This document shows, one piece after another, positions 13,237 to 44,486 of a DNA stretch of 64,000 nucleotides. The first letter of the stretch is position 1, and each line of letters begins with the position of its first letter. The stretch covers positions 445 to 64,444 of the forward strand of contig CAZNRX010000016.1 of the NCBI GenBank assembly GCA_964575455.1, written 5' to 3'. The notes beneath the pieces are model-generated. The model had not been told where the DNA came from, did no database searches, and saw nothing but the letters and a program-made list of their open reading frames with translations. Position numbers and translations under genes: made by a program. The stretch is from an uncultured Anaerolineales bacterium (GTDB lineage Bacteria; Chloroflexota; Anaerolineae; B4-G1).

Positions 13237-14073
13237 CTATCTCCGGTCGGGGGCCAGCCTCTTCAGCACATCTCTCAAGGCCTGAAGGGTCGGTCCACGC
13301 CCGGCCATGACGACGTCGTTGCCTGGTCCCCCTTTGACCATAGGAGCGTAGTCAATGGGGCTGCCGCTTAGGTGTCGCAGGTCCTGCCCCTGGGCTCGGT
13401 TGATGGCGTGAGCCGCTGCGATGTCCCAGATGTGGACGCCCGGGCCTTCTAGGGCGCCGATGACGGCGGGGTAGATCAGATGGAAGCAGAGATGGAGAGC
13501 GGCGCTGCCGATCCCTCTGATCTTCCCGATGTAGCCGCTCAGGTCGAGCTGCTTGTGGATCCGGGAGGTGACCATCAGGTTGGAGCGGGTGGAGATGGAC
13601 CGGGCTGGTCGCGGCGGCGGAAGCGCAGATCCGTTCAGCGTGGCTCCACGATTACCATTGGCGACGATGAGCAGGTCGAGTCGGGGGGCGAAGATGACAC
13701 CTGCGATGGGGGTCAGGTCACCGTCAAGCAGACCCACGGAGACACACCAGCCAGGCATACCTTGACTGAAGACGTCCGTGCCGTCGATGGGGTCGACGGC
13801 GAAGGTGAGCGCCTTCTCCGGATCGAAGGGATGCCGCGATTCCTCGGTGACGATGTTGGCCTGCGGGTGAAGGGGGCTGATGCGCTCGACCAGGAAGTCC
13901 TCAACCCTGCGGTCGGCCTCGGTGACGACAGAGTTGTCGGCCTTGTAGGTGCGGTCCGAGAAGGCCATGGCGCGCTGTTCCTGCAGGGCTATCTGGCCCG
14001 CCGCTTGGACGTGCGCTATGATATCTGCTACAATGCTGGTTACCTTGTGTCCCTTGGGCACGACTGCCTCCAA
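13237..14073 (-). CDS. inositol monophosphatase family protein (IMPase/CysQ/HisN-type phosphatase)
   Basis: Metal-binding motifs EESRHPFDP, VDPIDGT, WDIAAAH. Confidence 0.8.
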   Translation of the reverse strand: MEAVVPKGHKVTSIVADIIAHVQAAGQIALQEQRAMAFSDRTYKADNSVVTEADRRVEDFLVERISPLHPQANIVTEESRHPFDPEKALTFAVDPIDGTDVFSQGMPGWCVSVGLLDGDLTPIAGVIFAPRLDLLIVANGNRGATLNGSALPPPRPARSISTRSNLMVTSRIHKQLDLSGYIGKIRGIGSAALHLCFHLIYPAVIGALEGPGVHIWDIAAAHAINRAQGQDLRHLSGSPIDYAPMVKGGPGNDVVMAGRGPTLQALRDVLKRLAPDRR

Positions 14074-14837: not shown

Positions 14838-15668
14838 CTAAGACGCTCTCCGGAGCACCAGCGCGACGTGGTCACCCCAGAGCCGCCAGGGCCAGCAGTG
14901 GCGCAGCTGACGCTCCAGACGGCCCAGGGTGCGGAAGAGACCCCTATACCTTCGGAAGATGGCGTCCAGATAGGGCGGCGGCAAGAGCAGGGGAAGCGAG
15001 AGCGTCCGCTCGATGGCGAAGGCGGGGAAGAAAGCCTGCCTCACGTCTCGAACAGAGATGTAGCGCGTGGCCACGGAGACCTCGACGTCCTCGGTGCCGG
15101 CGACGGGCGCGGCCCGCCAACCCGGGTGGAGGCGGCGGAAGGCCACGCGTGGGCGGCCGTGGAGGAGGAACCAGGCCATCTCGAAGGGGCAGCAGCGTCC
15201 CATCACCGAGCAGACGAAGGCACCGCCCGGCCTGATCAGGCGGGCCAGCACCGCGCCGAGTTGCTCAAGATGGGGTTCACAGTTCAGGGCCCCGAAGCTA
15301 GCGTAGGCGCCGTCGAAGGGGGTTGGTGGTTGCAGCGCACCCATGCCGGCGGCTGGCGCGGCCAGCGCTGCCACGCGGTCGTCCAGGTCGGCGGCCCGCG
15401 CTTTGGCCAGCGCCAATGATGCCATCTTCGGGGAGATGTCCGTGGCCAGCACGCGTCGCCCAGATCTCGCCAGTGCAAGGGCTTCTTCTCCAGTGCCGCA
15501 GCCGATCTCCAAGAGGTAGCTGACAGGGGGGAACGTCGCCTTCAGCAGCGTCAGGCTCTCCTGGCGCATCCACGTCATCACCGCGTTCCCCTGCGGGCCG
15601 TAGACTGCGTCGTAGTGCGACGCGACGGCATCGAAGGCGCGCGCTGTGTCCAGGTAGTCTGGCTTCAT
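14838..15668 (-). CDS. class I SAM-dependent methyltransferase
   Basis: Motif I LEIGCGTGE. True start is the internal ATG at 15668, which overlaps the flippase stop; the 5' extension of the tracked ORF is a high-GC artefact. Confidence 0.8.
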   Translation of the reverse strand: MKPDYLDTARAFDAVASHYDAVYGPQGNAVMTWMRQESLTLLKATFPPVSYLLEIGCGTGEEALALARSGRRVLATDISPKMASLALAKARAADLDDRVAALAAPAAGMGALQPPTPFDGAYASFGALNCEPHLEQLGAVLARLIRPGGAFVCSVMGRCCPFEMAWFLLHGRPRVAFRRLHPGWRAAPVAGTEDVEVSVATRYISVRDVRQAFFPAFAIERTLSLPLLLPPPYLDAIFRRYRGLFRTLGRLERQLRHCWPWRLWGDHVALVLRRAS

Positions 15669-16951
15669 CGACACTCCTCCTCCTTCCACAGTGCCCGTCG
15701 GGCGAGCACGGAGAGCAGCGTCCAGAGCAGCCAGGCTGAGAGTAGAGCGACCGCGCTGACGCCGAGCGTACTCCAGCGAGGGATGACGAGCAGGTTGAGC
15801 CCCACGTTCACGAGCCCCACGATTGCCATAGCCCCCGTCACCGAGCGCTGACGCCCCAGGGCATAGAGGGTGTGGCCGTTGAGGAGGTAGAGAAACATGG
15901 CGGGGATGGCCCAAACCTGGATGCGAAAGGCCGTCACGGCGCTCCCGTACGCCTGCGTGCGCCCGTAGACGAGGGGCACGAGCGTCCCGGCCAGGGCGGT
16001 GCCCACAGCGGAGAGCAGCAGGCCACCGGCCAGGAGGAACGGTCCGGTGCGACGGACCAACCGGCGCAGCCGTCTGTGGCCCACGCCTTCCTGCGCCAGG
16101 CGCGCCATCTCGGGGAACGTGGCATCCAGTAGGCTGGCGGGGATCAAGCCCACCGCCTCCCACAGCCTGTAGGCGGCACCGTATTGGCCCGCGGCCACGT
16201 CCCCCTGCCAGGCGCTGAGCAGCACGACGTCCAGGCGTCGATAGGCCATGGCGATGATGCCCGTCACGGCGAAGGGATAGGCATCCGACAGAGCGTCCCC
16301 CCATTGGGCAGCAGCAAGGCGTAGACGAGGCAGCAGATGCCAGGATCGGAGGACGGCGCCGTAGATGAGGACGCCCACGGCATCTGCAGCCGCCGTGCAG
16401 ACCAGCACGCCAGGGACGCCGAAACCACCCTTGAGAGCCGGCACCGCCCCCGCCAAGGTGAGCAAGCGGGCGGCGACGTCGATGGCGCTGGCGATGTCCA
16501 TCCGCTGGCGGCCGTTGAAGAAGCCGTTCAGGATCCCTGAGGCTGCTTTCGGCAGCAGGGACAACGCGCCCAAGTATAGGAGGGGCTGGGTCTCGGCGGG
16601 GAGCAGCGGGACCCAGGCTAGACCGACCAGTACGCCCGCACCCAGAGTGGCCAGCGCCATGCGAAGGGGAAGCAGATCCCCCAGCAGCCGCTGTCGGCGG
16701 GAGGACAAGCGCTGGCGGGCCACTTCGCGCGTCAGGAGCATGCTCAGGCCTAAGTCGGTGATAGCTACAGCGAGCCCCACGACAGTGGTGATGAGGACGT
16801 AACGTCCCAGCCCCGCTGATCCCTCATGGCGGGTGACCAGCGCCAACAGGATTAAGGAGAGCAGCTTGGCCACTACCTGAGCGGCGAGCCGCGCGGTGGC
16901 ATTCCTGCCGACTCGGACGATGGTCTGGCGGGTCTCGACAGCCTGATCCAT
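15665..16951 (-). CDS. polysaccharide biosynthesis protein / Wzx-like oligosaccharide flippase
   Basis: 428 aa with 12 or more predicted TM segments and a PF01943/PF13440-like profile. Overlaps the neighbouring genes at both ends. Confidence 0.75.
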   Translation of the reverse strand: MDQAVETRQTIVRVGRNATARLAAQVVAKLLSLILLALVTRHEGSAGLGRYVLITTVVGLAVAITDLGLSMLLTREVARQRLSSRRQRLLGDLLPLRMALATLGAGVLVGLAWVPLLPAETQPLLYLGALSLLPKAASGILNGFFNGRQRMDIASAIDVAARLLTLAGAVPALKGGFGVPGVLVCTAAADAVGVLIYGAVLRSWHLLPRLRLAAAQWGDALSDAYPFAVTGIIAMAYRRLDVVLLSAWQGDVAAGQYGAAYRLWEAVGLIPASLLDATFPEMARLAQEGVGHRRLRRLVRRTGPFLLAGGLLLSAVGTALAGTLVPLVYGRTQAYGSAVTAFRIQVWAIPAMFLYLLNGHTLYALGRQRSVTGAMAIVGLVNVGLNLLVIPRWSTLGVSAVALLSAWLLWTLLSVLARRALWKEEECR

Positions 16952-18450
16952 CAGCCTTCTTCCTCGAGCATCGTCAGGAAGTCGAAACGTCGCAGGAAGG
17001 TCTGCTGATCCCAGCGCAGATCACGGGCCTGCCAGATGTGGACCACCTTGGTGGCCCCTGACTCCGTGAAGGTGAGCCGGTCCGGTCCCTCGACGTGCTG
17101 GAACGCCTCCTGGAGACGCTGTGTCACCAACTCGGGATCCAGGTAGTCCAAGGCCACGACCGTCGCGTCCTGGAGAGGAGGGATGCCCCAGATGCGGTAC
17201 TGGCCCCAGGCGGTGAAGGCGGGCCGCCTGGCGTGGTAACGGATCTGAGCTGCGATGCTGTAGTCGAGGGCGAAGATGGGGGCTGATTCCCGCTCGAGGA
17301 TCGCTCCCAGCGCCGGCCAACCTGCAGCGTCGCGTCGAATGGCGGGGACGATGCTGCTTCCAGGGAGGGGCGATGGCCCGCCCAGGCTGACGACCGTGCC
17401 GACGCCGAAGAGGGCCACCCCAAGGAGGAGGGGGGCGAACGCAACGGCTGCGACTCGGTGGAGCCCGGTCGCTGTCGCACGCGGCTTAGCTTCGCACGCT
17501 AGGCGGGTGCCGGCCAGCAGGAGCAGCGGCACGAGGCCTGTGCTCAGGTTACGGGGGCTGTTGATTGGGCTTACGGCGATGGGGATCAGCAGGAACAGGG
17601 CCAGAAGCGTCAGCAGGCGCTCCGCAGCGGTGCGCACCCGCCACAGACCCGCGGCGCCCAGCAGGATCAGCGGCCCGGTCAGGTAGACCCAGGCGTGACG
17701 CACATTCCCGAGCAGGCTCGCATGGTGTACAGCGGCCCGGGTCAGGTGGGAGAGCTGCCAGCGGAAGGATACCCAGTCGTGCCCCACGTTCCAGGCGACG
17801 ACGGGTGCCAAGCCCAGCGCCCCGACGCCAGCCCCGACCCAGAGCCTCGGCGTGCGAAGGAGGTGCCGGTGGTCAAGGAGCAGCGCCGCCGCGAGGGCCG
17901 TGGCGTAGACGTAGGCGCTGTACTTGGTGTTGAACAACAGCGCCAGGGTGAACCCAAACGCGAGCCCGTCGGCCACGCCGGCGTCCTCCCTCGCCATTCG
18001 CCAGAAGGCGAGGACGTTCAGCAGCATGAGGAACAGGGTCAGGGTATTGGTGTAGACGAAGCGGGAGGTGACGAGAAACGGCGCGCCCACCGCGACGGCG
18101 GCTGCCGCGAAGAGCCCTGCTCGGCGCGACAGTAGGCACTCCCCCACCAGCCAGGTGAGCACCACGCACACCACACCCGTCAGGGCGTTGAGCCAGCGTA
18201 TGCCAAATGGCGTGGAGCCGCCCAGCGCGGTGCTGGCTCGTATCAGGAGGGCGACGCCAGCCGGGTGGTCGTAGTAGGCCCAGGCAGGATGGAGGGACCA
18301 CAGCCAGTAGTAGCTCTCGTCGCCGATCATGGACATGGTGCTGAGGCCCAGGAGGCGCAGGGCCGAAGCAGCAGCCACGATCAGCAAGAGAGCCGGGATG
18401 GCGGTGGGGATTCTGCCCTGCTGGTCCCGTCGATCGGTTGGCTGAGTCAC
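16951..18450 (-). CDS. GT-C fold membrane glycosyltransferase (ArnT/PMT GT39/GT83-like)
   Basis: N-terminal multi-TM domain with the DE motif (IGDESYYW) typical of PMT_2/ArnT, followed by a C-terminal soluble domain. Confidence 0.75.
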   Translation of the reverse strand: MTQPTDRRDQQGRIPTAIPALLLIVAAASALRLLGLSTMSMIGDESYYWLWSLHPAWAYYDHPAGVALLIRASTALGGSTPFGIRWLNALTGVVCVVLTWLVGECLLSRRAGLFAAAAVAVGAPFLVTSRFVYTNTLTLFLMLLNVLAFWRMAREDAGVADGLAFGFTLALLFNTKYSAYVYATALAAALLLDHRHLLRTPRLWVGAGVGALGLAPVVAWNVGHDWVSFRWQLSHLTRAAVHHASLLGNVRHAWVYLTGPLILLGAAGLWRVRTAAERLLTLLALFLLIPIAVSPINSPRNLSTGLVPLLLLAGTRLACEAKPRATATGLHRVAAVAFAPLLLGVALFGVGTVVSLGGPSPLPGSSIVPAIRRDAAGWPALGAILERESAPIFALDYSIAAQIRYHARRPAFTAWGQYRIWGIPPLQDATVVALDYLDPELVTQRLQEAFQHVEGPDRLTFTESGATKVVHIWQARDLRWDQQTFLRRFDFLTMLEEEG

Positions 18451-19298
18451 GGCTTGACGCCCTCCTGCACGCGGATGGTGTACGTATAGGTGTCCCGCGG
18501 TGCGTCGACCGCGATGTCGATGCCCGACCAGGAGAGCGTGTAGAAGCCGAGCCAGTTGTACTGTCGATAGCGCTCCCGCCCCACGAAGCCCTGCTGCCCG
18601 GGCGGTGCCTCAACACAGAAGCGGATCCCGTGCGCGGGCGCCTCCCAGCAGCCGAAGGGCGCTGCCGTCTCCTCCCAGATGCCGACCTCGGCGGCGTTTG
18701 ACGCTTCGCCATCGGGGTTCACGTACCGGGTGAAGGCGCGAGCCCCTTGCTCGTTCATCAGGTAGGCCCGCTCCCAGTTGGCCTCAAGCCCGCTGAAGTC
18801 GACGGTGACGTCGATCGCGTCGGGCGGGCGGATCGTGTAGCTGAAGACCACCGTGCCCAAGGGGGCGACATCGGCATACTTCACGCGAAGCGGGCGCGTG
18901 GGACGGTCGACGACGTCAACGCGGTAGACCTTGACCATGGTGAGCCGTCCCCCGTGCCGGGCCACGGAGGTCGTGGCGTGCCGGGAGATGTGGGCAGCGC
19001 CATCAGCCTCGATGATGGGCAGGCCGAACCCGTAGCCTTCCTCGATCAGCTCCTGGCCCTCGTGGACGAGCACGAGGCCTTTCTGCAGCACGGCGATCTT
19101 GCCCACGTGGGGGCGGGTGGTGGTGTAGAGCCGGAGGTTCAGGGAGTCGGTCAGCCTTCCGTCAAGGGGGGCTGGCGACCGGACCACGAGGTCTTTGAGG
19201 TGGAGGGTGAGTCGCGGCGCGTATCGCTCCCGGACAGCGACCAGGAGCAGGAGAACGAGGACTAGAATGATCAGTGCGTAAGCCAGCCAGCGCCTCAT
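18447..19298 (-). CDS. membrane-anchored hypothetical protein
   Basis: Single N-terminal TM helix then a 250 aa extracytoplasmic domain. Its stop overlaps the downstream GT-C gene start in an ATGA junction. Confidence 0.55.
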   Translation of the reverse strand: MRRWLAYALIILVLVLLLLVAVRERYAPRLTLHLKDLVVRSPAPLDGRLTDSLNLRLYTTTRPHVGKIAVLQKGLVLVHEGQELIEEGYGFGLPIIEADGAAHISRHATTSVARHGGRLTMVKVYRVDVVDRPTRPLRVKYADVAPLGTVVFSYTIRPPDAIDVTVDFSGLEANWERAYLMNEQGARAFTRYVNPDGEASNAAEVGIWEETAAPFGCWEAPAHGIRFCVEAPPGQQGFVGRERYRQYNWLGFYTLSWSGIDIAVDAPRDTYTYTIRVQEGVKP

Positions 19299-19397
19299 AC
19301 CTCAGTCCCTCGTGTCAGCGATGTGCACGGGACGGCCACCTGTCTCGCTCCCAGGGCCGGTCGGATGACGGTGCCCTCACGCTGCGTGCATGAGGCA

Positions 19398-20738
19398 CTA
19401 TGGGACGGCTCCCGTGTGCCGAGGGTCGCGGTGGAACATCGGCCAAGCGCGACGGCCCAGCGGCCCAACGTTGCGCAGGAGATGGATGCCATTGTCCGCA
19501 CCCACCACGATGTCGGCACGTCCGTCTCCCTCCAGATCCCCAACCCAGGGTGAGGAGAAGACGTGCGCCCCCAGATTGTGCGGAAAGCCGGGAAGGAGCT
19601 CGGCCTGGGCTGTCCAACCATACAGGTTCCCATCCTTTGAGCCGACGACGATGTCGAGCGCGTCGTCTCCGTTCAGGTCGACGAGCGCGGCGGAGGAGAT
19701 GATCTGATCGTCGACCTGGATAGGCCATCCGGGAAGGGGGCGTCCGGCGTCGTCCCAGACGTAGATCCGCCCGTCCCAGCTGCCGACGACGATCTCGAAG
19801 GCGCCGTCCCCGTCGAGATCGGCCACGGCGGGCGAGGCCTCGATGGAGTGAACGTCGCCGCCCGGCGGATGCGGCGTCGGGGTCGGCCCTGAGATGACGC
19901 CTATGGTGCGCACCGGGAATCCCTCCCGGTCTCGCCCTCGTGCATCGACGACGTGGAGGTACCCGTCGTCGTCGCCGAGGATGATCCATCTCTCGCCGTT
20001 CTGGTCGAGGTCGGCCAGGGCAGGGGATGAATCGGAGTCTCGCGCCAGCATCATCGGGAACCCGGGAATCCGCTCCCCACGGGCACTCCCCCCGACCAGG
20101 GTCCAGGCTGTGAGCCAACCTTCTGACGGGTCGCCTCTCGTGAGGGAGGTGATGGCGAGCAGGTCCCCGTCGCTGGCGGCGGTGGCATCGGCCCATCCGT
20201 TCATCGGCTTGGGCCAGCCTGCGACGTTCTCTCCGCCGGCGTTGAGGAGAAACATGTGTTCGTCTCCACCGATGGCGAGCAGCGGGCCCTCCAGTACCGT
20301 GGGCGATGACCATATCTCTTCACCGCCCAGGTCGACAGGGAATCCAGTGACGGACGAGCCGTCGTGGTTCCAGCCGTATAGAAGGCCGCGGTCCGAACCG
20401 ACGATGATCTCCATCGCGCCGTCGAAATCCAGGTCCGCCAGAGCCGGGGAGGAGAAAAAGCCACGGCGGCTCCACTTGGGCCATCCCGGCAGATCGTGCA
20501 GGTCGGTGTCGAGGAGATAGAAGTGTCCATCCCAGGAGCCGACGGCAATCTCCATTCTCCCGTCTCCGTCGACGTCCCAGGCCACGGGCGAGGAGATGAC
20601 AGGGTCGCTGGTTGGCTTGAAGCGGTGGTCAGCTGCCAGGTTGCGCGGCGATCTGACCGGCGCGCGGCAGCTGACCAGGAGCATCGAGAGACCGATCAGC
20701 GCGGCTGCACGCAGAGGCCTAAGGCTCACGGTCTCCAT
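19398..20738 (-). CDS. FG-GAP/VCBS repeat beta-propeller lipoprotein
   Basis: Lipobox LVSC. Repeated A(D)LDGDG..E(I)(V)VGS motifs across at least 7 blades. Confidence 0.8.
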   Translation of the reverse strand: METVSLRPLRAAALIGLSMLLVSCRAPVRSPRNLAADHRFKPTSDPVISSPVAWDVDGDGRMEIAVGSWDGHFYLLDTDLHDLPGWPKWSRRGFFSSPALADLDFDGAMEIIVGSDRGLLYGWNHDGSSVTGFPVDLGGEEIWSSPTVLEGPLLAIGGDEHMFLLNAGGENVAGWPKPMNGWADATAASDGDLLAITSLTRGDPSEGWLTAWTLVGGSARGERIPGFPMMLARDSDSSPALADLDQNGERWIILGDDDGYLHVVDARGRDREGFPVRTIGVISGPTPTPHPPGGDVHSIEASPAVADLDGDGAFEIVVGSWDGRIYVWDDAGRPLPGWPIQVDDQIISSAALVDLNGDDALDIVVGSKDGNLYGWTAQAELLPGFPHNLGAHVFSSPWVGDLEGDGRADIVVGADNGIHLLRNVGPLGRRAWPMFHRDPRHTGAVP

Positions 20739-20773
20739 CGCTCCTGAACGATATGACGGTCATCATGGGTGGG

Positions 20774-22246
20774 TCATCCTTTCCCACCACCCGGTTCCGG
20801 CGCCGCGATGAATGGAAGAGAGGTATGAGCGGCGAGGAGACCGAAGACGGTGGCGGCATACCAGCTGTTGGTCGGGAAGAGGGCAACGTCGAAGAGGCCG
20901 GCGATCAGCATAGCGATCCACGGTGCCCAGGCCGGGGACTGCGGGCGGCTGAGGCCGCTCAGAACCAGCCAGATCCAGAGGGCGGCCCCTGGCAGGCCGA
21001 GCTCGGCCGCGGTCAGGAGGGGGACGTTGTGCACGGTGCGTGAATCGGTCTCGATGGCGCGCACAGCGACCAGGTAGTTGTTCACCCCCACGCCTCGCCA
21101 GGGATGCTGCCTGATCAGCCGCAGGGCCAGGTTCGCATCCACCTGTCGGTCTGAGACCGAGCGCGCCTCGATGGGCGTCTCCAGGTGCAGGAAGCGGCTG
21201 GCGACCAGGTCGTGGTAGAGCAATAGGAAGAGCAAGGCGAGCACGACGGGCACGACAAACTGGACGGGTTGTCTCAGCGTCTCGACGAGGCCGCGGAGGG
21301 ATCTCTTCCCCTCGGGGCCGCATGGGGTGCGACGGTGAAGGGACCTGTGCAGCAACCACGCCAACAGGCCAACGCCGAAGGCGAGCCAGGCGCTGCGCGA
21401 GAACGTGACCAGTAGGCCAAGGAGCCCAGCGCTGGCGACCAGTGCAAACCAGGCCTGTGCCCAACCGCGCGCTTTGGCGATGTCGCTTCGCTTACTCTTC
21501 TTATGGCGGATGTCGCTTTGCTTACCCTCTTTATGGCGGATGTCGCTTCGCTTCCCTTTCATCGTGGCGTCGTCGATTATGATAAGCAGCGAGATCGAAA
21601 GCACCGCGCCGAGGAGATTGGGGTGACCGCTGAGGCCATAGGCACGAAGCCAACGTTGGCCGCGGGCGAAGAGCACACAAACGCCAGAGCGCTCCGGGTC
21701 CAGCGTGGGCTCCCCCAGCGCGCTGAGCCCCAGGTCTCCCTGGAACGCAAACTGGCCCAGTGCGACGCTGCTCTGGATTGCGATCACAAGTGTAAGCGGA
21801 ATCGTCAGGCTTGGGGCCTCGTTGACGATGAACAGATAGACCCACCAGAGCAGGCCGAGCGAGAGGATGACGACCACGGTGCGCTGGTTGAGGGCAGGTT
21901 CGAGGCTGAGCAGCATCAGCAAGGTGAGCCCGGCCAGGGGAAGCGTGATGCCGGGCCTGCCCCAGCGCCAGGGTCGCGAGGGACGTTCGCAGACGCGAGC
22001 GACGAACCATGCGATGAGGGCCAGCCCGGGCACCAGGACAAGCGGCCCCAAGGCCACCGGTGCCTCATCGATGCCGGGGACCTGGACGATGGGCAGCCAG
22101 TTGAGTGGGCCCCTGGTGGGCGAGGGAAAGATGAGGGTCAGTGTGATGAAGGTGAGGAAGAGACCCTGCTTGGCTCTGTTGAAAAGCGCCGTGCGGCGGG
22201 CCTGGTTGGGCGGCCTGGGGGACGCGTCAGCCTGGATTGTTCTCAC
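20774..22246 (-). CDS. O-antigen ligase/polymerase family (Wzy_C) membrane protein
   Basis: Multi-TM protein with the Wzy_C signature region (RSAWLAFGVGLLAWLL). Contains an in-frame 30 bp x3 tandem repeat. Confidence 0.75.
   Translation of the reverse strand: MRTIQADASPRPPNQARRTALFNRAKQGLFLTFITLTLIFPSPTRGPLNWLPIVQVPGIDEAPVALGPLVLVPGLALIAWFVARVCERPSRPWRWGRPGITLPLAGLTLLMLLSLEPALNQRTVVVILSLGLLWWVYLFIVNEAPSLTIPLTLVIAIQSSVALGQFAFQGDLGLSALGEPTLDPERSGVCVLFARGQRWLRAYGLSGHPNLLGAVLSISLLIIIDDATMKGKRSDIRHKEGKQSDIRHKKSKRSDIAKARGWAQAWFALVASAGLLGLLVTFSRSAWLAFGVGLLAWLLHRSLHRRTPCGPEGKRSLRGLVETLRQPVQFVVPVVLALLFLLLYHDLVASRFLHLETPIEARSVSDRQVDANLALRLIRQHPWRGVGVNNYLVAVRAIETDSRTVHNVPLLTAAELGLPGAALWIWLVLSGLSRPQSPAWAPWIAMLIAGLFDVALFPTNSWYAATVFGLLAAHTSLPFIAAPEPGGGKG
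21478..21568. repeat. 30 bp imperfect tandem repeat x3 inside the ligase CDS
   Basis: GATGTCGCTTCGCTTACTCTTCTTATGGCG / GATGTCGCTTTGCTTACCCTCTTTATGGCG / GATGTCGCTTCGCTTCCCTTTCATCGTGGCG, encoding K/R-rich decapeptides (KRSDIRHKEG...). Confidence 0.8.
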
Positions 22247-22247
22247 C

Positions 22248-23735
22248 TCATCCTTTCACCGTGGGCTGAAAACGGGATGTGACGGCGCCAGGGAGTCGCG
22301 CGATGGCGTTCACCAGGAGGCGGTCGCGCCACAGTCCCAGCCTAGCCTTCATCCGGTCCAGGTGCGAGGCCTGTTCGCCATCCTTCAGGCGCGCGTCGCG
22401 CCACTCACTGTGGAGCCAGCGGATGACGCGGCGGTAGAACAGCGTGCTGAAGCGTCCACGCTCAAACAGCACACGATTTTCGGCGGTGTGCGTCCAATCT
22501 GGCGCGTGCTGGCCCTCGAACGTGAGACGGTCGCGCACCTCCTCATAGAACGGCGTGCCCGGCAGGGGGTAGGCGATGGTGGTGCTGAATTCGTCGGGGC
22601 GCGTGCGCCGCAGCAGGCTCACGGAGCGCTCCAGGTCTGACCACGTCTCGCCTGGATAGCCGACCATCATGTAGAAGTAGGTCTGGATGCCGAGCCGCCG
22701 GCAGAGCTCGGCGGCTTGATCGATCTGCTCGACCGTGATGCCCTTGTTCATGGCGTCGAGCACGGCCTGCGATCCGGACTCCGCGCCGAAGTGGATGCGA
22801 CGACAGCCGACGTCCTTCAGCAGGCGGGCCATCTCCTCGTCCATGAGGTCGACGCGGCTGAGGCATTCGAAAGGGATCACGGCTGTAGGGACAGCCGCAT
22901 CCCTCTCGAGCAGGGCGTCGTGCCAGGCGTACACCCAGTCGCGATCGATGCCCATGACGTCGTCGACGATGCGGATCTGGTCGGGCTGGTGGTCTCGCTT
23001 GATGAGCGCCATCTCGTCGGCCACAGACTGCGGCGAGCGCGGGCGGAAACTGCGCCCGAAGACGCTCTTCTGACACCAACTGCAGCTGTAGGGGCAGCCG
23101 CGGGTGGCGATGATCGAAAGGGAGAAGTAGCCGTGTGCACTCCGCCACGCCTGACGGTATCGCTCGATGTCAAGGAGATCCCGGGCGGGGAAAGGCAGGC
23201 GGTCGACGTCCTGGATCAGGAGGCGTCTCGGAGTTTGGACCATCTGCCCCGTCTGGTCGCGGTAGGCCACGCCCTGCACCTCGCCCAGCGCAGCGGGGAT
23301 ATCGTCCCCGTCAAGCAAGGGGGGCAGAAGCTCCAGGATGGTCTCCTCTCCCTCTCCCACGACGACGACATCGACCGAAAAACGACCTTGGGCCTGGTGC
23401 TGCAGGTAGAGATCGGGGCGAGCGGTGGGATCAGCCCCGCCCACAATCACGGTAGCTCCCCATCCCTTGGCCAGAGCTGCCAGACGAAGCGCCGCCTCTC
23501 GGACGGTGGCCAGGATCGCCAGACCCACGATCTGAGGGCGCTCTCGGTCCAGGGCCTTGAGGAAGGCGTCGTCGTCCTCGGCAAACATGGCGTCGAAGAT
23601 GGTCACGTCGTATCCGGCCTCGCGGGCGGTTCCCGCGAGATAGAGCAGCCCTAGCGGAAAATAGGGCGTCATGAGGCGTGACTCCACCGGGTCGCTGTGC
23701 AGAAAGAGCGGGTTCACCAGCATTAGGTCAGACAT
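22248..23735 (-). CDS. B12-binding domain radical SAM enzyme (class B)
   Basis: N-terminal cobalamin-binding Rossmann region (VGLAILATV..VIVGG) followed by a radical SAM core with CPYSCSWC. Start taken at the internal ATG (MSDLMLVNP). Confidence 0.8.
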   Translation of the reverse strand: MSDLMLVNPLFLHSDPVESRLMTPYFPLGLLYLAGTAREAGYDVTIFDAMFAEDDDAFLKALDRERPQIVGLAILATVREAALRLAALAKGWGATVIVGGADPTARPDLYLQHQAQGRFSVDVVVVGEGEETILELLPPLLDGDDIPAALGEVQGVAYRDQTGQMVQTPRRLLIQDVDRLPFPARDLLDIERYRQAWRSAHGYFSLSIIATRGCPYSCSWCQKSVFGRSFRPRSPQSVADEMALIKRDHQPDQIRIVDDVMGIDRDWVYAWHDALLERDAAVPTAVIPFECLSRVDLMDEEMARLLKDVGCRRIHFGAESGSQAVLDAMNKGITVEQIDQAAELCRRLGIQTYFYMMVGYPGETWSDLERSVSLLRRTRPDEFSTTIAYPLPGTPFYEEVRDRLTFEGQHAPDWTHTAENRVLFERGRFSTLFYRRVIRWLHSEWRDARLKDGEQASHLDRMKARLGLWRDRLLVNAIARLPGAVTSRFQPTVKG

Positions 23736-24708
23736 AGGCTCCCATTCCAGGCAGTGTCTTGTCGTCGTTGGTCGACGGATCCGCCAGGGCGCGCAGGCGC
23801 TCGTCGAAGGACGCCAGAATGACCTGCTCATTGCTCTCGAAATGGCCCTTGCAGCGGTCGACACTGAAGCAGGCCGTGTCCGTGCCCCCTCCCTGCTTGG
23901 CGAAGCGGCGGATCTTGCGTCTTCGCTCGAAGCGCTCCAGCTGACCGCCCACAAACGTGCCCAGCGCGATCTCGGCCAGCGAGCGTGCGGAGGAGCGCGA
24001 GGCCGCGAATGGCTCGAACGGTCGAGGCAGTCCGGTCGCGTTTGGGAGGAAACGCGTCGTCCAACGGTTGGCCGCTCGTATGCGGTGATAGATGTCCAGG
24101 CCTGCCAGCGGCACCATCTGTGCCAGCTCGTGAGCGACGTACAGGTTCTGCTCTGCGAAGTCGAACGCGTGCTCGGAGAGCAGGTAGTTGGGGCACACCT
24201 CGTGACCGCGTCGTGCGGCGGGCTTGACCACCAAGCCAATGACCATGGCCCGGGTGAGCCAGAGCCGACCGGGTGCTGTGACGATCAGGAAATCGACGTC
24301 ATCGCCAGGGAGCACGTTGCCCACGGCCAGGGCTCCGGTGAGCATGACGGCTCGCACGAACGGCAGGGCGGCGATCGCCTGTCCGTAGCGCAAAGCAAGG
24401 GGCCACATCTGAGCTGCGACCTCTGCCCGGCGTCGACGCAGGTTCACCACCTCCCTACGGTGGGGGAGCGTGACATAGGCGCCGTGCCGCTCCAATCTCC
24501 CGCTCGCCCAGGACTCATTGTCCAGCGCACGAAGAACACGGTCGCGATCCGTCTCCAGACCGAGGAGGTATCGGTGGATCTGAGAGGGCGTTAGAGGGTA
24601 GTCAAAGACGTCAGCGTAGGCCAGCGTGCACAGGATCGCCAGATCAAGCTGATCGAGCGTTGGGTCCGTCCAGATTGACTCGGCGTCAGGAATGCCTCGT
24701 GATTCCAT
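23728..24708 (-). CDS. hypothetical protein with nucleotidyltransferase (Pol-beta superfamily) fold signature
   Basis: hG[GS]-x9-DhD-like motif TGALAVGNVLPGDDVDFLIV. Overlaps the radical SAM start by 8 nt. Confidence 0.5.
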   Translation of the reverse strand: MESRGIPDAESIWTDPTLDQLDLAILCTLAYADVFDYPLTPSQIHRYLLGLETDRDRVLRALDNESWASGRLERHGAYVTLPHRREVVNLRRRRAEVAAQMWPLALRYGQAIAALPFVRAVMLTGALAVGNVLPGDDVDFLIVTAPGRLWLTRAMVIGLVVKPAARRGHEVCPNYLLSEHAFDFAEQNLYVAHELAQMVPLAGLDIYHRIRAANRWTTRFLPNATGLPRPFEPFAASRSSARSLAEIALGTFVGGQLERFERRRKIRRFAKQGGGTDTACFSVDRCKGHFESNEQVILASFDERLRALADPSTNDDKTLPGMGAYV

Positions 24709-24804
24709 GGATCCAATTCCTGGCTATGACTAGAAGCCCAGACTGACGGTGATGGGAGTATAGCACCGATCTATCGTTTGAAAAAGGGATGGCGCTTCTC
24801 CTAA

Positions 24805-25698
24805 CTACGCCAAGAACAAGCCCACGGCCATAAGGACCGGAGTCACAATGCAGATGAGGACGTTGAGCTTCAGGTAGGGCACCAGCTTATCCGTGTGCTC
24901 TGCCTGGCGGTATGCCCCGATGGCGGTGGGCACCGCCGCGAGCAGCATGACCAAGGCCACGAGAGTGGCGAGTGGCAGCAGTCCGAGTGAGACGCCCGCG
25001 ACGATAGCCAGGAAAGCGAGCAGCATGAAGGATCCATATATCAGGCTGCTGGGCCGGCGACCGATGACGATGGGATAGTGCCTTCTGGCGACGATCCTGT
25101 CCGCGTCCACGTCGGGGAACTGGTTCAACAACAGAAGGTTGTTCACGAGAAGGAAGGGGACGAGCGATGCTGTGAAGGCCGTCCAGGAATAGGACCCTGT
25201 CAGCACGAAGTCCGTACCCATCACCATCAGGAGCCCGAACCCGAGACCAGGGGCAATCAGGCAGAGGATAGGGAGCTTGGCCAGCCAGGGGGTGTAGGTC
25301 ACCACGATCAGCAGGCCAAGAAGACCCAGCGGCAGGAGCTCCCAGCCCCTGATCCAGACGAAGAGCAGGCCGATGCCAGCGGTCACCACCAAGGTTATCA
25401 GGCCCAGGGCCAGCACCTGGCGGGCCAGATCGGGTTGGGCGGGCAGCGTTCCGCTCCCGCCGCTGAAAGGCGTTCGGTTGGTGTGGAAATCCAATTCGCT
25501 CTTGAAGTCGAAGTACTCGTTGAGGGTGTCGACGCTGATGTGGGCGCATAGCGCGCCGACGAGCGCCAGGACCACGTAGAGCGCGTTTACGTGCCCAGAT
25601 GTCCAGACAGCGGTGCCGATCCCCAGAAGCGCGCAGGCCGGCGTCAGAATCAGGAACGGCGGCCGCGTTGTAGCTAGGAGATGCTTGAATCTGCTCAT
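24805..25698 (-). CDS. UbiA-family prenyltransferase
   Basis: Nine TM helices with Asp-rich motifs NEYFDFKSELD and DVDADR. Confidence 0.8.
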   Translation of the reverse strand: MSRFKHLLATTRPPFLILTPACALLGIGTAVWTSGHVNALYVVLALVGALCAHISVDTLNEYFDFKSELDFHTNRTPFSGGSGTLPAQPDLARQVLALGLITLVVTAGIGLLFVWIRGWELLPLGLLGLLIVVTYTPWLAKLPILCLIAPGLGFGLLMVMGTDFVLTGSYSWTAFTASLVPFLLVNNLLLLNQFPDVDADRIVARRHYPIVIGRRPSSLIYGSFMLLAFLAIVAGVSLGLLPLATLVALVMLLAAVPTAIGAYRQAEHTDKLVPYLKLNVLICIVTPVLMAVGLFLA

Positions 25699-29603: not shown

Positions 29604-30590
29604 ATGATTGATCAAATACTCGTCCCGCTGGATGGATCGTCTCTGGCGGAGTGTGTCCTCCCGCACGTGGTGGCCGTCGGGCGAGCCATGGAGGCGCAGG
29701 TGACGCTGCTGCGGGCTGTGGTGCGGGAACCGAGCCCGCAGTCTAGCGCTGTCGATCCGCTGAGATGGCACATGCGGAAGTCAGAGGCGGATTCCTACCT
29801 GCGCGAGGTGGCGGCGCGGCTGCGAGACACAGGGCTGGAGACCAAGTCCGTGCTGGCGGAGGGAAGGGCGCCCGAGCGCATCCTGGGGTACGCACGGGAA
29901 GAGGACGTTGGGCTCATCATCGTCAGCAGCCACGGCGAGAGCGGCCTGAGTCAGTGGAACATCAACAGCGTGGTGCAGAAGGTGATCCTGCAGGCCTATG
30001 CGCCGATCATGATCGTGAGAGCCTATGAGTGGACTGTAAGCGCAGCGACGTCACCCCAGCCGTCCACCGAGGAGCTGACCGAAACACGTTATGAGAGGGT
30101 GCTTCTGCCACTCGACGGCTCTCAGCGGGCCGAATGCACGCTGCCGTGGGCGAGCAGCCTGGCTGACTTCCACGGGTGCAAGCTGCTGCTGGCTCACGCA
30201 GTAAGGAGGCCGGAGGTTCCGCGTCGTGCCCCGTTGACGGAGGAGGAGAGCGAACTGGCGGAGCGGCTCACAGCCCTCAACCGAGAGCAAGGGGAGGCGT
30301 ACCTTCAGGATCTGAAGGCGCGTCTCGGCTCGGCTGCGGCGGAGTCGCGTCTGCTGGTGAGCGATGACCCGGCCAGAGCGCTACACGACGTGGTCGACGA
30401 GGATGACGTCGATCTGGTGGTGATGGCGGCCCATGGCTACTCCGGTGAGACGAGATGGCCCTACGGAAGCATAGCGTTGAACTTCATCGCTTACGGCTCC
30501 AAGCCACTGTTGATGATCCAAGACATACCCCCCGAAGAGGCGGAGACAACGGCAGCTGAGAGGGCGGCCAGTGAATACGCGGGACACTGA
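29604..30590 (+). CDS. tandem universal stress protein (2x UspA domains)
   Basis: Two USP domains (ILVPLDGS... and VLLPLDGS...), each with a G-x2-G-x9-GS ATP-binding-like motif. Confidence 0.8.
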   Translation: MIDQILVPLDGSSLAECVLPHVVAVGRAMEAQVTLLRAVVREPSPQSSAVDPLRWHMRKSEADSYLREVAARLRDTGLETKSVLAEGRAPERILGYAREEDVGLIIVSSHGESGLSQWNINSVVQKVILQAYAPIMIVRAYEWTVSAATSPQPSTEELTETRYERVLLPLDGSQRAECTLPWASSLADFHGCKLLLAHAVRRPEVPRRAPLTEEESELAERLTALNREQGEAYLQDLKARLGSAAAESRLLVSDDPARALHDVVDEDDVDLVVMAAHGYSGETRWPYGSIALNFIAYGSKPLLMIQDIPPEEAETTAAERAASEYAGH

Positions 30591-39500: not shown

Positions 39501-39505
39501 GCTAG
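30571..39505 (+). CDS. cyclic beta-1,2-glucan synthase (Cgs/NdvB-like: N-terminal domain, TM region, GT84 glycosyltransferase, GH94 phosphorylase-like domain), with frameshift at a G7 tract (32064-32070)
   Basis: ORF 30571..32202 and ORF 31964..39505 are consecutive parts of one Cgs homolog (GT84 signatures YVITLDADT, LSHDLFEG, RWVRGDWQ; GH94-like C-terminal two-thirds). The frames switch at the GGGGGGG homopolymer; one fewer G gives the continuous reading ..RLNRTYGKGGVLRVLRGRFHRERLWNPKESCWMGWERKRGKL. Confidence 0.75.
35621..35690 (+). repeat. 15 bp in-frame microsatellite (CAGGAYCTGCACATG)x4.6 encoding (QDLHM)n
   Basis: Perfect tandem copies inside the glucan synthase CDS. Confidence 0.85.
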
Positions 39506-42780: not shown

Positions 42781-43131
42781 ATGCTGCAAAGAGCAGAGGA
42801 CGTCTATGGATTGACGGTTGAGGCGGTCGACGGTGATGCGGGGCGCGTGCATAACCTGTTCTTTGACGATCAGCAATGGGTGGTTCGCTACGTCGTCGTG
42901 GACACGGGGGGCTGGCTTGGTGGAAGACGCGTCTTGCTCTCCCCCGTTGCGATCAAAGGGGTGCTTCGGGACGACGGTGAGATGGAGGTTGCGCTCACCA
43001 AGTCGCAAGTGGAGCACAGTCCGGACATCGATCTGGATAAGCCGGTCTCCAGGCAACAGATCGTCGAGCTGCATGGGCCGAGACGCCCGAGTACTATGGT
43101 TGGCCCGCCTACTGGGGCGGCAGCGCGATGA
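42781..43131 (+). CDS. PRC-barrel domain protein, probably frameshifted relative to the next gene
   Basis: PRC-barrel signature (VHNLFFDDQQWVVRYVVVDTGGWL..RRVLLSP). The conserved C-terminal tail (ETPEYYGWPAYWGG) is encoded in the frame of the next ORF rather than this one. Confidence 0.6.
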   Translation: MLQRAEDVYGLTVEAVDGDAGRVHNLFFDDQQWVVRYVVVDTGGWLGGRRVLLSPVAIKGVLRDDGEMEVALTKSQVEHSPDIDLDKPVSRQQIVELHGPRRPSTMVGPPTGAAAR

Positions 43132-43565
43132 TGGGTACGGCGACCCCGGGCGTCTATCCGATGATTATGGCCGGCGTGGATCAGGTCGAGGCGGAGATGA
43201 AAGAGCAGGGTCCCAGCGAAAAGCATCGCGGTGACCCTCATCTGCGCAGCGCCAGGGCGGTGGATGGCTATGACATCCACGCCCTCGACGGCGAGATCGG
43301 GCACGTGGAGGACTACTTCGTTGACGACAAGGACTGGGTGATCCGCTATTTGCTGGTGGATACCCGGGACTGGCTGCCCGGCCGCGAGGTCCTGATCTCG
43401 CCGAGCTGGATCGAGCGCGTGGACTGGGCCGAGACGGCGGTGCACGTAGCGTTGACAAAAGCTCAGATTGAGGCCAGTCCGGCGTACGACCCCGAGGAGC
43501 CGCCTGGTCGTGACTACGAGGCGCTGCTTCATAGGTACTATGGCTATCCCGGCTACTGGTCGTAG
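43128..43565 (+). CDS. PRC-barrel domain protein
   Basis: VEDYFVDDKDWVIRYLLVDTRDWLPGREVLISP and the C-terminal RYYGYPGYWS motif. Confidence 0.7.
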   Translation: MMGTATPGVYPMIMAGVDQVEAEMKEQGPSEKHRGDPHLRSARAVDGYDIHALDGEIGHVEDYFVDDKDWVIRYLLVDTRDWLPGREVLISPSWIERVDWAETAVHVALTKAQIEASPAYDPEEPPGRDYEALLHRYYGYPGYWS

Positions 43566-43613
43566 GGTAGAGCGAGTGGCGAATCGTCTGCAGCGCAGCG
43601 AGGTGGATCGCTC

Positions 43614-44354: not shown

Positions 44355-44370
44355 GGGAACCCTGTGACAT

Positions 44371-44395
44371 CGCCCTGGGCTGAAGGCCCAGGGCG
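44371..44395 (+). terminator. GC-rich hairpin downstream of the DUF72 gene
   Basis: CGCCCTGGGC-TGAA-GGCCCAGGGCG (10 bp stem) with no U-tract; a second hairpin (AGCCCTTCGGGCT) follows. Confidence 0.3.
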
Positions 44396-44486
44396 CAGGG
44401 GCGAAGCCCTTCGGGCTGGGAATTGGGAGATAGAAGACGTAAGTGAGGTTGTCTAGCAGGACGGTTGTTTGAGGGAGGAGAGAGGT

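What the first reader, a model, noticed from the sequence alone, without database searches (positions are those of the whole stretch)
14838..25698. Nine-gene, same-strand envelope modification cluster combining a UbiA prenyltransferase, a B12-radical SAM enzyme, a nucleotidyltransferase-fold protein, a GT-C glycosyltransferase, a Wzy_C protein, a flippase and a methyltransferase
Genes are tightly packed with overlapping start/stop junctions at 15665-15668, 16951, 18447-18450, 22246-22248 and 23728-23735. That makes a single operon likely. UbiA-family enzymes make polyprenyl-phosphate-linked donors (for example decaprenyl-P-ribose for GT-C arabinosyltransferases). Here such an enzyme is linked to a GT-C/PMT-like transferase, a Wzx flippase and a cobalamin radical SAM enzyme (possible methylase or epimerase). 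The content is consistent with a lipid-linked sugar donor pathway for protein or glycan modification that does not match a characterised system.
Basis: inference. Interest (0 to 1): 0.7.

Follow-up and report, generated by a model that had tools for sequence, protein, structure and literature searches.

The report
Chloroflexota surface-glycan operon with radical-SAM tailoring pair
The nine same-strand genes are real, but the conserved unit is eight of them: an uncharacterised surface-sugar assembly operon of Chloroflexota built around a nucleotidyltransferase-like protein paired with a vitamin-B12 radical enzyme, and the UbiA prenyltransferase is only a recent neighbour.

Summary
In detail: nine minus-strand genes at 14838-25698 have the stated domains and tight junctions.

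Across 86 related loci, almost all from Chloroflexota, the 326-aa protein ("NTL") is the anchor. It has a winged helix, a pol-beta nucleotidyltransferase fold and no Pfam or NCBIfam family. In 71 of 75 loci with room, one coherent B12-radical-SAM family follows it directly. SAM methyltransferases, Wzy_C proteins and Wzx-like flippases usually accompany the pair.

The full NTL-to-methyltransferase set recurs without UbiA down to 47% NTL identity. UbiA lies nearby only in three close relatives, and a beta-lactamase-family gene separates it from NTL in two of them. UbiA orthologues at 65% identity sit in unrelated neighbourhoods. UbiA is nearest to MenA but scores below every cut-off.

NTL occurs fused to GT2, GT4 and Wzy_C proteins, which ties it to glycan assembly. 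The 283-aa unknown is a membrane-anchored galactose-mutarotase-like beta-supersandwich.

Best reading: a Wzx/Wzy-type pathway for a tailored, probably methylated, Chloroflexota surface glycan. The chemistry is unknown. I rate it a new variant of a known kind, of moderate interest.

The parts
23728..24708 (-). NTL: winged-helix plus pol-beta nucleotidyltransferase-fold protein. It is the anchor gene of the conserved system. The ORF is 326 aa; relatives are typically about 311 aa.
22248..23735 (-). Cobalamin-type (class B) radical SAM enzyme, the obligate partner of NTL.
   Evidence: PF02310 69.5 bits and PF04055 100.3 bits. CPYSCSWC starts at residue 214. All NCBIfam equivalogs are below cut-off; the best is BchE, 166 against 481. 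The closest solved structure is MgmA 9ccb, E 2e-21. It lies directly downstream of NTL in 71 of 75 loci. The NTL-adjacent copies form one linked sequence group.
20774..22246 (-). Wzy_C-domain polytopic membrane protein: a glycan polymerase, ligase or oligosaccharyltransferase type.
   Evidence: PF04932 58.3 bits. About 8 hydrophobic segments. A Wzy_C gene was found in 16 of 31 loci that have at least 8 kb on each side. A Wzy_C::NTL fusion exists, P0410.
19398..20738 (-). FG-GAP/VCBS beta-propeller protein, a predicted lipoprotein and therefore extracytoplasmic.
   Evidence: PF01839 and PF13517. Lipobox L-V-S-C24 in the N-terminus. Conserved in window-type clusters L005, L006, L010-L013, L055.
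18447..19298 (-). unk283: an N-terminal transmembrane anchor plus a galactose-mutarotase-like beta-supersandwich. A carbohydrate-binding or carbohydrate-processing fold.
16951..18450 (-). GT-C glycosyltransferase of the PMT_2/ArnT type.
   Evidence: PF13231 74.8 bits, PF02366 35 bits. A D44-E45 pair follows the first hydrophobic segment. It co-occurs with FG-GAP and unk283 in window-type loci.
15665..16951 (-). Wzx/MOP-family flippase.
   Evidence: PF01943 88.6 bits, with MurJ and MatE overlapping hits. In L059 the corresponding gene is a methyltransferase::flippase fusion.
14838..15668 (-). Class I SAM-dependent methyltransferase, the last gene of the unit.
   Evidence: Methyltransf_25/11/12. 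A homologous MT is present in 25 of 31 well-flanked loci.
24805..25698 (-). UbiA-family prenyltransferase (MenA-like, sub-threshold). It is an adjacent gene and most likely not part of the system.
   Evidence: PF01040 89 bits. Best NCBIfam MenA model 93 bits against a cut-off of 264. Motifs N60-x3-D-x5-D70 and D196-x3-D200. Linked to NTL in 3 of 86 loci only. Orthologues lie in unrelated contexts.
24757..24784 (-). Sigma-70-like promoter match (TTTTCA-16-TATACT with upstream TG) in the 96-nt UbiA-NTL gap.
   Evidence: 6 promoter-like sites found against 1.4 expected in shuffles. This is a consensus match only. It is compatible with NTL-to-MT being transcribed independently of UbiA.
21475..21557 (.). 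30-bp tandem repeat (2.8 copies) inside the Wzy_C gene. It encodes a K/R/S/D-rich loop (KGKRSDIRHKEGKQSDIRHKKSKRSDI).
   Evidence: The L001 and L005 orthologues are 10 and 18 aa shorter.

Best explanation
The functional unit is the eight-gene operon from NTL to the methyltransferase (14838-24708, minus strand). It is a lineage-specific version of a gene system widespread in Chloroflexota that helps assemble and tailor a cell-surface glycan on a lipid carrier.

Cytoplasmic steps (inferred): the NTL protein and its obligate B12-radical-SAM partner modify a sugar-containing intermediate. NTL probably uses an NTP to tag or activate the substrate, or transfers a phospho-linked group. The radical SAM enzyme most probably performs a C-methylation or a related radical alteration. 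The SAM methyltransferase adds a further methyl group.

Export and assembly (inferred from family membership): the Wzx-like flippase moves the lipid-linked product across the membrane, and the Wzy_C protein polymerises or ligates it.

Outside the membrane (inferred): the GT-C enzyme adds a residue from a polyprenyl-phosphate sugar. The FG-GAP lipoprotein and the membrane-anchored mutarotase-like protein bind or process the glycan.

Shown here: gene content, folds, conservation, the NTL-rSAM pairing and the fusions to glycan enzymes. Also shown: the neighbouring UbiA gene is not a conserved component and probably serves an unrelated prenylation.
For: Cluster and domains:
- All nine genes and their domains are confirmed, and the junctions are tight.
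- The same eight genes recur in order in L005, L010, L011 and L012. All eight recur in L006 (47% NTL identity) with Wzy_C moved to the end. L013 has seven of them and L055 (cut by the contig end) five.

NTL-rSAM pairing:
- 71 of 75 loci have a B12-rSAM directly after NTL.
- Those copies form a single sequence group.

Link to glycan assembly:
- Wzy_C, flippase and MT co-occur with the pair.
- GT4 genes lie in L002, L003, L059 and L094.
- L059 has an MT::flippase fusion.
- NTL occurs fused to GT2, GT4 (both domain orders) and Wzy_C. Three full-length GT4::NTL members lie on at least three separate contigs, and the NTL::GT4 fusion lies on a 2.7-Mb contig.

Folds:
- NTL has the NTase fold with invariant G...DxD.
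- The FG-GAP protein has a lipobox.

UbiA exclusion: plus a promoter-like site in the UbiA-NTL gap.

Background: Chloroflexi lack an LPS outer membrane, and a peptidoglycan-polysaccharide complex is reported for Herpetosiphon (PMC3368417).
Against: - No priming phosphoglycosyltransferase, cytoplasmic glycosyltransferase or chain-length regulator lies in the window's cluster. The only other GT among the large ORFs I scanned in the window (most of those of 200 aa or more) is a GT2 about 26 kb away. The pathway is therefore incomplete locally.
- Some relatives (L016, L018) show only NTL, 3-4 B12-rSAMs, MTs and a SPASM radical SAM enzyme, with no detected glycan gene nearby. That pattern would also fit a small-molecule, lipid or peptide product.
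- No enzyme activity, substrate or product is known for NTL or its rSAM partner.
- The rSAM is equally distant from methylases (MgmA) and non-methylases (AprD4, BchE).
- The promoter evidence is only a consensus match.
Confidence: 0.6

Rival explanations
1. First reader's model. UbiA makes a polyprenyl-phosphate-linked sugar donor, by analogy with decaprenyl-phosphoribose. The GT-C enzyme uses that donor, and all nine genes form one pathway.
For: UbiA is on the same strand and 96 nt upstream of NTL, both in the window and in L001. GT-C enzymes do use polyprenyl-phosphate sugars (established family knowledge).
Against: UbiA is linked in 3 of 86 loci only. A beta-lactamase-family gene separates it from NTL in L005 and L010. 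It is absent from L006, L011-L013 and L055, which have GT-C and the rest of the cluster. Orthologues at 65% identity lie in unrelated contexts. The best family matches are MenA-type, and none is a DPPR-synthase model. No DprE-like genes are present. A promoter-like site lies in the UbiA-NTL gap.
Confidence: 0.06
2. Protein O-glycosylation system. The Wzy_C protein acts as a PglL/WsaB-like oligosaccharyltransferase and the PMT_2 GT-C enzyme as a protein O-glycosyltransferase. They decorate S-layer, sheath or pilus proteins with a tailored glycan, rather than building a wall-linked polysaccharide.
For: Wzy_C and PMT/PMT_2 domains are both found in protein O-glycosylation enzymes (family knowledge). 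The organism is a monoderm-type Chloroflexota without LPS (PMC3368417). No chain-length regulator is present in the cluster.
Against: No acceptor protein gene is conserved next to the cluster. The Wzy_C domain cannot distinguish a polymerase from a ligase or an oligosaccharyltransferase. The score against the NCBIfam protein O-mannosyltransferase model is negligible, 21.5 against 800.
Confidence: 0.15
3. The NTL, B12-rSAM and MT core builds or methylates a membrane glycolipid or another small glycoconjugate. The GT4 enzymes add sugars to a lipid, the rSAMs methylate the aglycone, and the flippase moves the glycolipid. The product is not a polymeric glycan.
For: Expanded clusters carry 3-5 radical SAM enzymes, 2-3 MTs and two GT4s (L094, L016, L018). 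That pattern resembles natural-product or lipid tailoring. Known B12-rSAMs methylate hopanoids and other lipids; NCBIfam hits to HpnR, HpnJ and the ladderane-type model are all sub-threshold.
Against: Wzy_C is frequently adjacent and is once fused to NTL. The window's version adds an extracytoplasmic GT-C, a propeller and a glycan-enzyme-like supersandwich protein. No lipid-synthesis genes lie in the cluster.
Confidence: 0.12
4. Peptide (RiPP-like) modification. The winged helix of NTL acts as a leader-peptide recognition element, and the B12 and SPASM radical SAM enzymes methylate or crosslink a peptide.
For: NTL has an N-terminal winged helix. SPASM rSAMs and multiple B12-rSAMs occur in some relatives. 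The closest solved rSAM, MgmA, methylates a protein.
Against: There is no room for a precursor ORF in the 96-nt gap upstream of NTL. In L002 the upstream gap holds a 417-aa ORF, not a short peptide gene. The fusions are to glycosyltransferases and Wzy_C, not to peptidases or transporters. The window's cluster has no SPASM enzyme.
Confidence: 0.04

Closest known systems
Wzx/Wzy-dependent glycan assembly (O-antigen, capsule, S-layer glycan and secondary cell-wall polymer pathways)
   Same: A MOP/Wzx-type flippase and a Wzy_C polytopic membrane protein lie in one operon with tailoring enzymes. Relatives add GT4 glycosyltransferases.
   Different: No priming phosphoglycosyltransferase, repeat-unit GTs or Wzz-type regulator is present locally. 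The host phylum has no LPS. The signature tailoring pair (winged-helix NTase-like protein plus B12-radical SAM enzyme) is not part of any described Wzx/Wzy system I could find.
Cobalamin-dependent radical SAM enzymes acting on sugars or nucleotide-tagged substrates (GenK/GenD1, MoeK5, Fom3 acting on cytidylylated hydroxyethylphosphonate). This comparison comes from my own knowledge, not from a tool result.
   Same: The domain architecture is B12-binding plus a radical SAM core with CxxxCxxC. Pairing with a nucleotidyltransferase-type protein recalls Fom1/Fom3, where a nucleotide handle is installed before radical methylation.
   Different: Sequence relatedness is only at superfamily level, with all NCBIfam equivalogs far below cut-off. 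The partner here has a pol-beta fold, not a GT-A-type cytidylyltransferase fold. The context is a primary envelope-glycan operon rather than an antibiotic cluster. No activity is known.
Pol-beta superfamily nucleotidyltransferases (MNT antitoxins, kanamycin/ANT(4') and AadA aminoglycoside nucleotidyltransferases)
   Same: The core fold and the G...DxD metal-binding motif match. ANT enzymes nucleotidylate sugar hydroxyls.
   Different: NTL has an extra, strongly conserved N-terminal winged helix (AYADVFDYPLT motif) and its own C-terminal helical region with a DxCKGHF motif. It scores below the Pfam NTP_transf_2 threshold. There is no toxin partner and no resistance context.
   Same: A UbiA-family gene and a GT-C gene lie on one strand within 8 kb.
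   Different: The UbiA here is MenA-like and is not conserved with the GT-C. No DprE1/DprE2 genes are present.
ArnT/PMT-type GT-C glycosyltransferases
   Same: The PMT_2 domain scores above threshold, and an acidic pair follows the first membrane segment.
   Different: No ArnC/GtrB/Dpm1-like polyprenyl-phosphate glycosyltransferase lies in the cluster. The acceptor is unknown. Weak similarity to Agl23 only, 34 against 126 bits.

Membership tests
Wzx/Wzy-dependent glycan pathway | Wzx (MOP-family) flippase | tested here: met
   PF01943 88.6 bits against a cut-off of 28.2.
Wzx/Wzy-dependent glycan pathway | Wzy/WaaL-type Wzy_C membrane protein | tested here: met
   PF04932 58.3 bits against a cut-off of 31.7.
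Wzx/Wzy-dependent glycan pathway | Initiating phosphoglycosyltransferase and cytoplasmic repeat-unit glycosyltransferases in the locus | tested here: not met
   None among the nine genes or among the flanking large ORFs I scanned. A lone GT2 lies at 51447-52349. GT4 genes and fusions exist in relatives.
Wzx/Wzy-dependent glycan pathway | Chain-length regulator (Wzz/PCP) | tested here: not met
   No such domain in the cluster.
DPPR-synthase (UbiA) / GT-C donor pathway | UbiA belongs to the decaprenyl-phosphate phosphoribosyltransferase subfamily | tested here: not met
   All 13 NCBIfam hits are MenA, chlorophyll-synthase or archaeal-lipid prenyltransferase models. The best is MenA at 93 bits; none is a DPPR model.
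DPPR-synthase (UbiA) / GT-C donor pathway | Conserved genomic linkage of UbiA with the GT-C and the rest of the cluster | tested here: not met
   UbiA appears in 3 of 86 loci. Clusters that contain GT-C (L006, L011-L013, L055) lack it. Orthologues are in unrelated contexts.
MenA (1,4-dihydroxy-2-naphthoate prenyltransferase) | Score above the equivalog cut-off | tested here: not met
   NF004751 93.1 bits against 264; TIGR00751 33.7 against 102. JGI auto-annotation calls the orthologues MenA, while NCBI calls them only 'prenyltransferase'.
MenA (1,4-dihydroxy-2-naphthoate prenyltransferase) | Two Asp-rich motifs of UbiA-superfamily enzymes | tested here: met
   N60EYFDFKSELD70 and D196VDAD200. 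These are generic to the superfamily.
Class B (cobalamin-dependent) radical SAM enzymes | N-terminal B12-binding domain plus radical SAM core with CxxxCxxC | tested here: met
   PF02310 69.5 bits, PF04055 100.3 bits, C214PYSCSWC.
Class B (cobalamin-dependent) radical SAM enzymes | Membership of a functionally defined subfamily (BchE, HpnJ/R, MgmA, PhpK and others) | tested here: not met
   All 32 NCBIfam matches are far below their cut-offs. The best PDB relative is MgmA at E 2e-21.
Class B (cobalamin-dependent) radical SAM enzymes | Cobalamin binding and methyl transfer activity | not testable with these tools
   Needs reconstitution and assay.
Pol-beta superfamily nucleotidyltransferases | Alpha/beta core fold with G[GS]...DxD motif | tested here: met
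   Foldseek probability 0.98-1.00 to the MNT structures 7bxo and 6m6u; KNTase 1kny and AadA 5lpa match more weakly. G125-A126 and D137-x-D139 are invariant in 40 sequences.
Pol-beta superfamily nucleotidyltransferases | Pfam NTP_transf_2 above gathering score | tested here: not met
   13.8 bits against 21. Only 8 of 40 family members give even a weak hit.
LicD/fukutin-type NTase-fold phosphotransferases of glycan decoration | Detectable sequence or fold similarity to LicD/FKRP | tested here: inconclusive
GT-C glycosyltransferases (PMT_2/ArnT-like) | PMT_2 domain above threshold and an acidic motif in the first extracytoplasmic loop | tested here: met
   PF13231 74.8 bits. D44-E45 follows the first hydrophobic segment.

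The most novel reading that the evidence does not exclude
The winged-helix NTase-like protein and its dedicated B12-radical-SAM partner form a previously undescribed two-enzyme glycan-tailoring module. One possibility is nucleotidylation followed by radical C-methylation or rearrangement of a sugar on a lipid-linked or nucleotide-linked intermediate. The module would be a near phylum-wide signature of Chloroflexota envelopes and would define the chemistry of their still uncharacterised wall, sheath or S-layer glycans.
Probability: 0.35. Interest if true: 0.7.

Novelty: new variant of a known kind. Interest (0 to 1): 0.52.

Why it matters
Chloroflexota are abundant in soils, sediments, hot springs and wastewater sludge. 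The chemistry and genetics of their cell envelope remain poorly known.

A protein family with thousands of members has no Pfam or NCBIfam model. It is almost always paired with a cobalamin radical SAM enzyme and is repeatedly fused to glycosyltransferases and a Wzy_C protein. That gives a concrete genetic handle on a conserved surface glycan of this phylum.

Cobalamin radical SAM chemistry is known mainly from antibiotics, cofactors, lipids and peptides. If the radical SAM enzyme acts on a sugar in a primary envelope pathway, its known scope would widen. It would also tie envelope synthesis in these organisms to cobalamin supply.

For the scan itself, the practical lesson is that the eye-catching UbiA gene is a bystander.

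Tried and rejected
- **Sequence searches for the two unknowns.** Pfam, NCBIfam, PDB-sequence and PADLOC searches gave nothing meaningful. A defence-system reading was rejected.
- **afdb50 fold search for NTL.** The library was unavailable.
- **RiPP precursor search.** The UbiA-NTL gap of 96 nt is too short. The 1.3-kb uncalled gap upstream of NTL in L002 holds a 417-aa ORF, not a peptide gene.
- **The 711-aa no-Pfam protein at 7952-10087.** I compared it with the 712-aa no-Pfam protein next to NTL in L006. They are not homologous.
- **Inositol monophosphatase at 13237-14073.** It is kept only in close relatives, as flank synteny, and an opposite-strand gene separates it from the cluster. I treat it as unrelated.
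- **Literature.** Five full-text searches and a 2026 review of B12-radical SAM enzymes gave no description of this gene pair or of B12-rSAMs in envelope-glycan operons.
- **Exact-sequence look-up of the window's NTL.** Nothing was found. The source genome was recognised only through its UbiA, which matches P0121 at 100%.

Full report
**1. Observation**

The region 14838-25698 holds nine consecutive minus-strand ORFs.

- Pfam and NCBIfam confirm seven of the stated domains: UbiA, B12-binding plus Radical_SAM, Wzy_C, PMT_2 (GT-C), Polysacc_synt/MurJ-type flippase and a class I methyltransferase.
- The radical SAM protein carries CPYSCSWC from residue 214.
- Measured junctions are: NTL/rSAM -8 nt, rSAM/Wzy_C +1 nt, Wzy_C/FG-GAP +35, FG-GAP/unk283 +99, unk283/GT-C -4, GT-C/flippase -1, flippase/MT -4, UbiA/NTL +96.
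- The flanks are unrelated. On one side lie a divergent response regulator, then MgtC/DUF4010, HtrA and Usp. On the other lie an opposite-strand cytochrome-c-like gene and an inositol monophosphatase.

**2. The two unknown proteins**

The 326-aa protein, which I call NTL, has no Pfam, NCBIfam or PDB sequence match.

- An AF2 model built on 40 homologues is confident (pLDDT 91.5).
- Foldseek matches its middle part to pol-beta nucleotidyltransferases (MNT antitoxins, kanamycin nucleotidyltransferase, AadA).
- G125, D137 and D139 are invariant, giving the G...DxD metal-site motif. Further invariant blocks (AYADVFDYPLT, RLWLxRA, CPNY, DxCKGHF) point to a specific active enzyme.

The 283-aa protein also models confidently (pLDDT 92.3).

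- It is an N-terminal membrane helix followed by a beta-supersandwich.
- This is a carbohydrate-binding or carbohydrate-processing fold placed outside the membrane.

**3. Comparative genomics**

NTL has more than 1300 word-index homologues. A profile search finds 6366 clusters at 50% identity.

A scan of species-representative genomes found 245 genomes with a relative. Of the 80 loci kept, nearly all titled records are Chloroflexota: Anaerolineales, Ardenticatenaceae, Caldilineales, Promineifilaceae, Herpetosiphonaceae, Roseiflexaceae, Thermomicrobiaceae, Sphaerobacter and Thermoflexus. Two are Acidobacteriota records. The closest representative is an Anaerolineales MAG at 87% identity.

I searched the nine window proteins against six-frame ORFs of 89 loci and counted the results.

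- In 71 of 75 loci with enough downstream sequence, a B12-radical SAM gene lies directly after NTL on the same strand.
- All NTL-adjacent copies, including the window's, fall in one linked sequence group.
- Among 31 loci with at least 8 kb on both sides: rSAM 30, MT 25, Wzy_C 16, flippase 13, FG-GAP 5, GT-C 3, unk283 3, UbiA 1.
- The window-type arrangement (NTL, rSAM, Wzy_C, FG-GAP, unk283, GT-C, flippase, MT) recurs in full and in order in L005, L010, L011 and L012, and in part in L013 and L055. In L006, at 47% NTL identity, all eight genes are present but Wzy_C is moved to the end.
- Other lineages carry NTL-rSAM-MT with Wzy_C and GT4 genes and a methyltransferase::flippase fusion (L059; L002/L003).
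- Others carry expanded sets with 3-5 radical SAM genes and 2-3 MTs (L016, L018, L094).

**4. Fusions**

Among the top profile hits, NTL occurs fused to:

- a GT2 (P0365, two members);
- GT4 at its N-terminus (P0367, with three full-length members on separate contigs; P0450);
- GT4 at its C-terminus (P0434, an NCBI Anaerolineae protein on a 2.7-Mb contig);
- a Wzy_C protein (P0410).

P0434 heads a cluster of four B12-rSAMs, a SPASM rSAM, three MTs and another GT4. That cluster lies next to Agd3-like, GH114 and Spherulin4-like exopolysaccharide-processing genes. These independent fusions tie NTL to glycan assembly.

**5. UbiA**

- UbiA lies near NTL only in L001, L005 and L010 (at least 78% NTL identity).
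- In L005 and L010 a beta-lactamase-family gene lies between UbiA and NTL.
- L012 and L014 keep the orthologous response-regulator flank directly next to NTL, without UbiA.
- The UbiA family is very large and better conserved than NTL: 63-68% identity over more than 100 listed clusters, one of them labelled Thermodesulfobacteriota.
- Orthologues at 65% identity sit beside peptide deformylase/ParB/sigma-54, or beside Mg-chelatase-like/VWA/ABC genes.
- The best NCBIfam matches are MenA models at 93 bits against a cut-off of 264. No DPPR-synthase model is hit.
- A sigma-70-like match lies in the UbiA-NTL gap at 24784-24757. This is weak evidence.

UbiA is therefore a MenA-like prenyltransferase of uncertain substrate, and a recent neighbour rather than a component of the system.

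**6. Mechanism**

Shown:

- An eight-gene conserved unit exists.
- NTL and a B12-rSAM form an obligate pair.
- NTL is linked to, and sometimes fused with, glycosyltransferases, Wzy_C and flippase genes.
- Three proteins are extracytoplasmic: GT-C, the FG-GAP lipoprotein and the supersandwich protein.

Inferred:

- NTL, the rSAM and the MT tailor a sugar-containing intermediate in the cytoplasm. From my own knowledge, the nearest functional precedents are nucleotide tagging before radical methylation (Fom1/Fom3) and B12-rSAM sugar C-methylases (GenK, MoeK5).
- The Wzx-like flippase exports the lipid-linked product, and Wzy_C polymerises or ligates it.
- GT-C adds a residue from a polyprenyl-phosphate sugar outside the membrane. 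The propeller and supersandwich proteins bind or process the polymer.
- A plausible product is the wall-linked polysaccharide or a sheath or S-layer glycan of these LPS-free bacteria (PMC3368417).

Weak points:

- There is no priming transferase or repeat-unit GT in the window's cluster.
- Some relatives have no nearby glycan gene.
- The rSAM reaction type is unknown.

**7. Comparison and novelty**

The system works like a Wzx/Wzy glycan pathway but lacks several defining parts locally. It adds a tailoring pair that I could not find in any curated family or paper. It is not a member of the DPPR/GT-C arabinan-type donor pathway.

I rate it a new variant of a known kind. Interest is moderate, because the pair is very widespread, unnamed and experimentally tractable, but its chemistry is still unknown.

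Noticed in passing
window 30571-32202 and 31964-39505 (+): A giant GH94/glucoamylase-domain gene, of the cyclic beta-1,2-glucan synthase or phosphorylase type, is split here into two overlapping ORFs in different frames (543 aa and 2513 aa). The orthologue in L001 is a single 2953-aa gene. This suggests a frameshift: either a pseudogene or an assembly error.
   Followed up: partly
window 21475-21557: A 30-bp tandem repeat (2.8 copies, 87% matches) lies inside the Wzy_C gene and encodes a K/R/S/D-rich loop. The orthologues in L001 and L005 are 10 and 18 aa shorter, so copy number may vary between strains.
   Followed up: partly
window 56333-59860, 59888-61369, 62210-63022 (-): A DnaE-type polymerase III alpha gene follows an IMS/DUF6504 (ImuB-like) gene and a 270-aa protein with no Pfam hit. 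This looks like an imuA-imuB-dnaE2 mutagenesis cassette.
   Followed up: no
window 48787-49986 (+): A bacterial archaeo-eukaryotic release-factor-like (baeRF family 7/3) protein lies directly after a P-type cation ATPase and before a DAGK/YegS-like lipid kinase.
   Followed up: no
window 5163-7913, 7952-10087 and 42888-44816 (-): Three large ORFs (916, 711 and 642 aa) have no Pfam hit. The 711-aa one is not homologous to the 712-aa no-Pfam protein that flanks NTL in L006.
   Followed up: partly
L059 13657-15825: A methyltransferase::Polysacc_synt flippase fusion (722 aa) occurs in a Candidatus Leptofilum NTL-rSAM cluster. It suggests methylation is coupled to export of the lipid-linked product.
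   Followed up: partly
L094 1-9622 (opposite strand to the NTL::GT4 cluster): Agd3-like carbohydrate esterase, Spherulin4 and GH114 genes, typical of galactosaminogalactan- or Pel-like exopolysaccharide processing, lie next to an expanded NTL cluster with five radical SAM genes.
   Followed up: no
L047 and L065: NTL-rSAM pairs also occur in records labelled Vicinamibacterales (on a 3.4-Mb contig) and Acidobacteriota. This suggests occasional transfer outside Chloroflexota.
   Followed up: no
L091 2033-2938 and 8001-8894: Two UbiA-family genes lie within 6 kb, flanking Mg-chelatase-like/VWA and NMT1-type ABC transporter genes, in a Chloroflexota MAG. This may hint at the real role of the MenA-like UbiA subfamily.
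   Followed up: no
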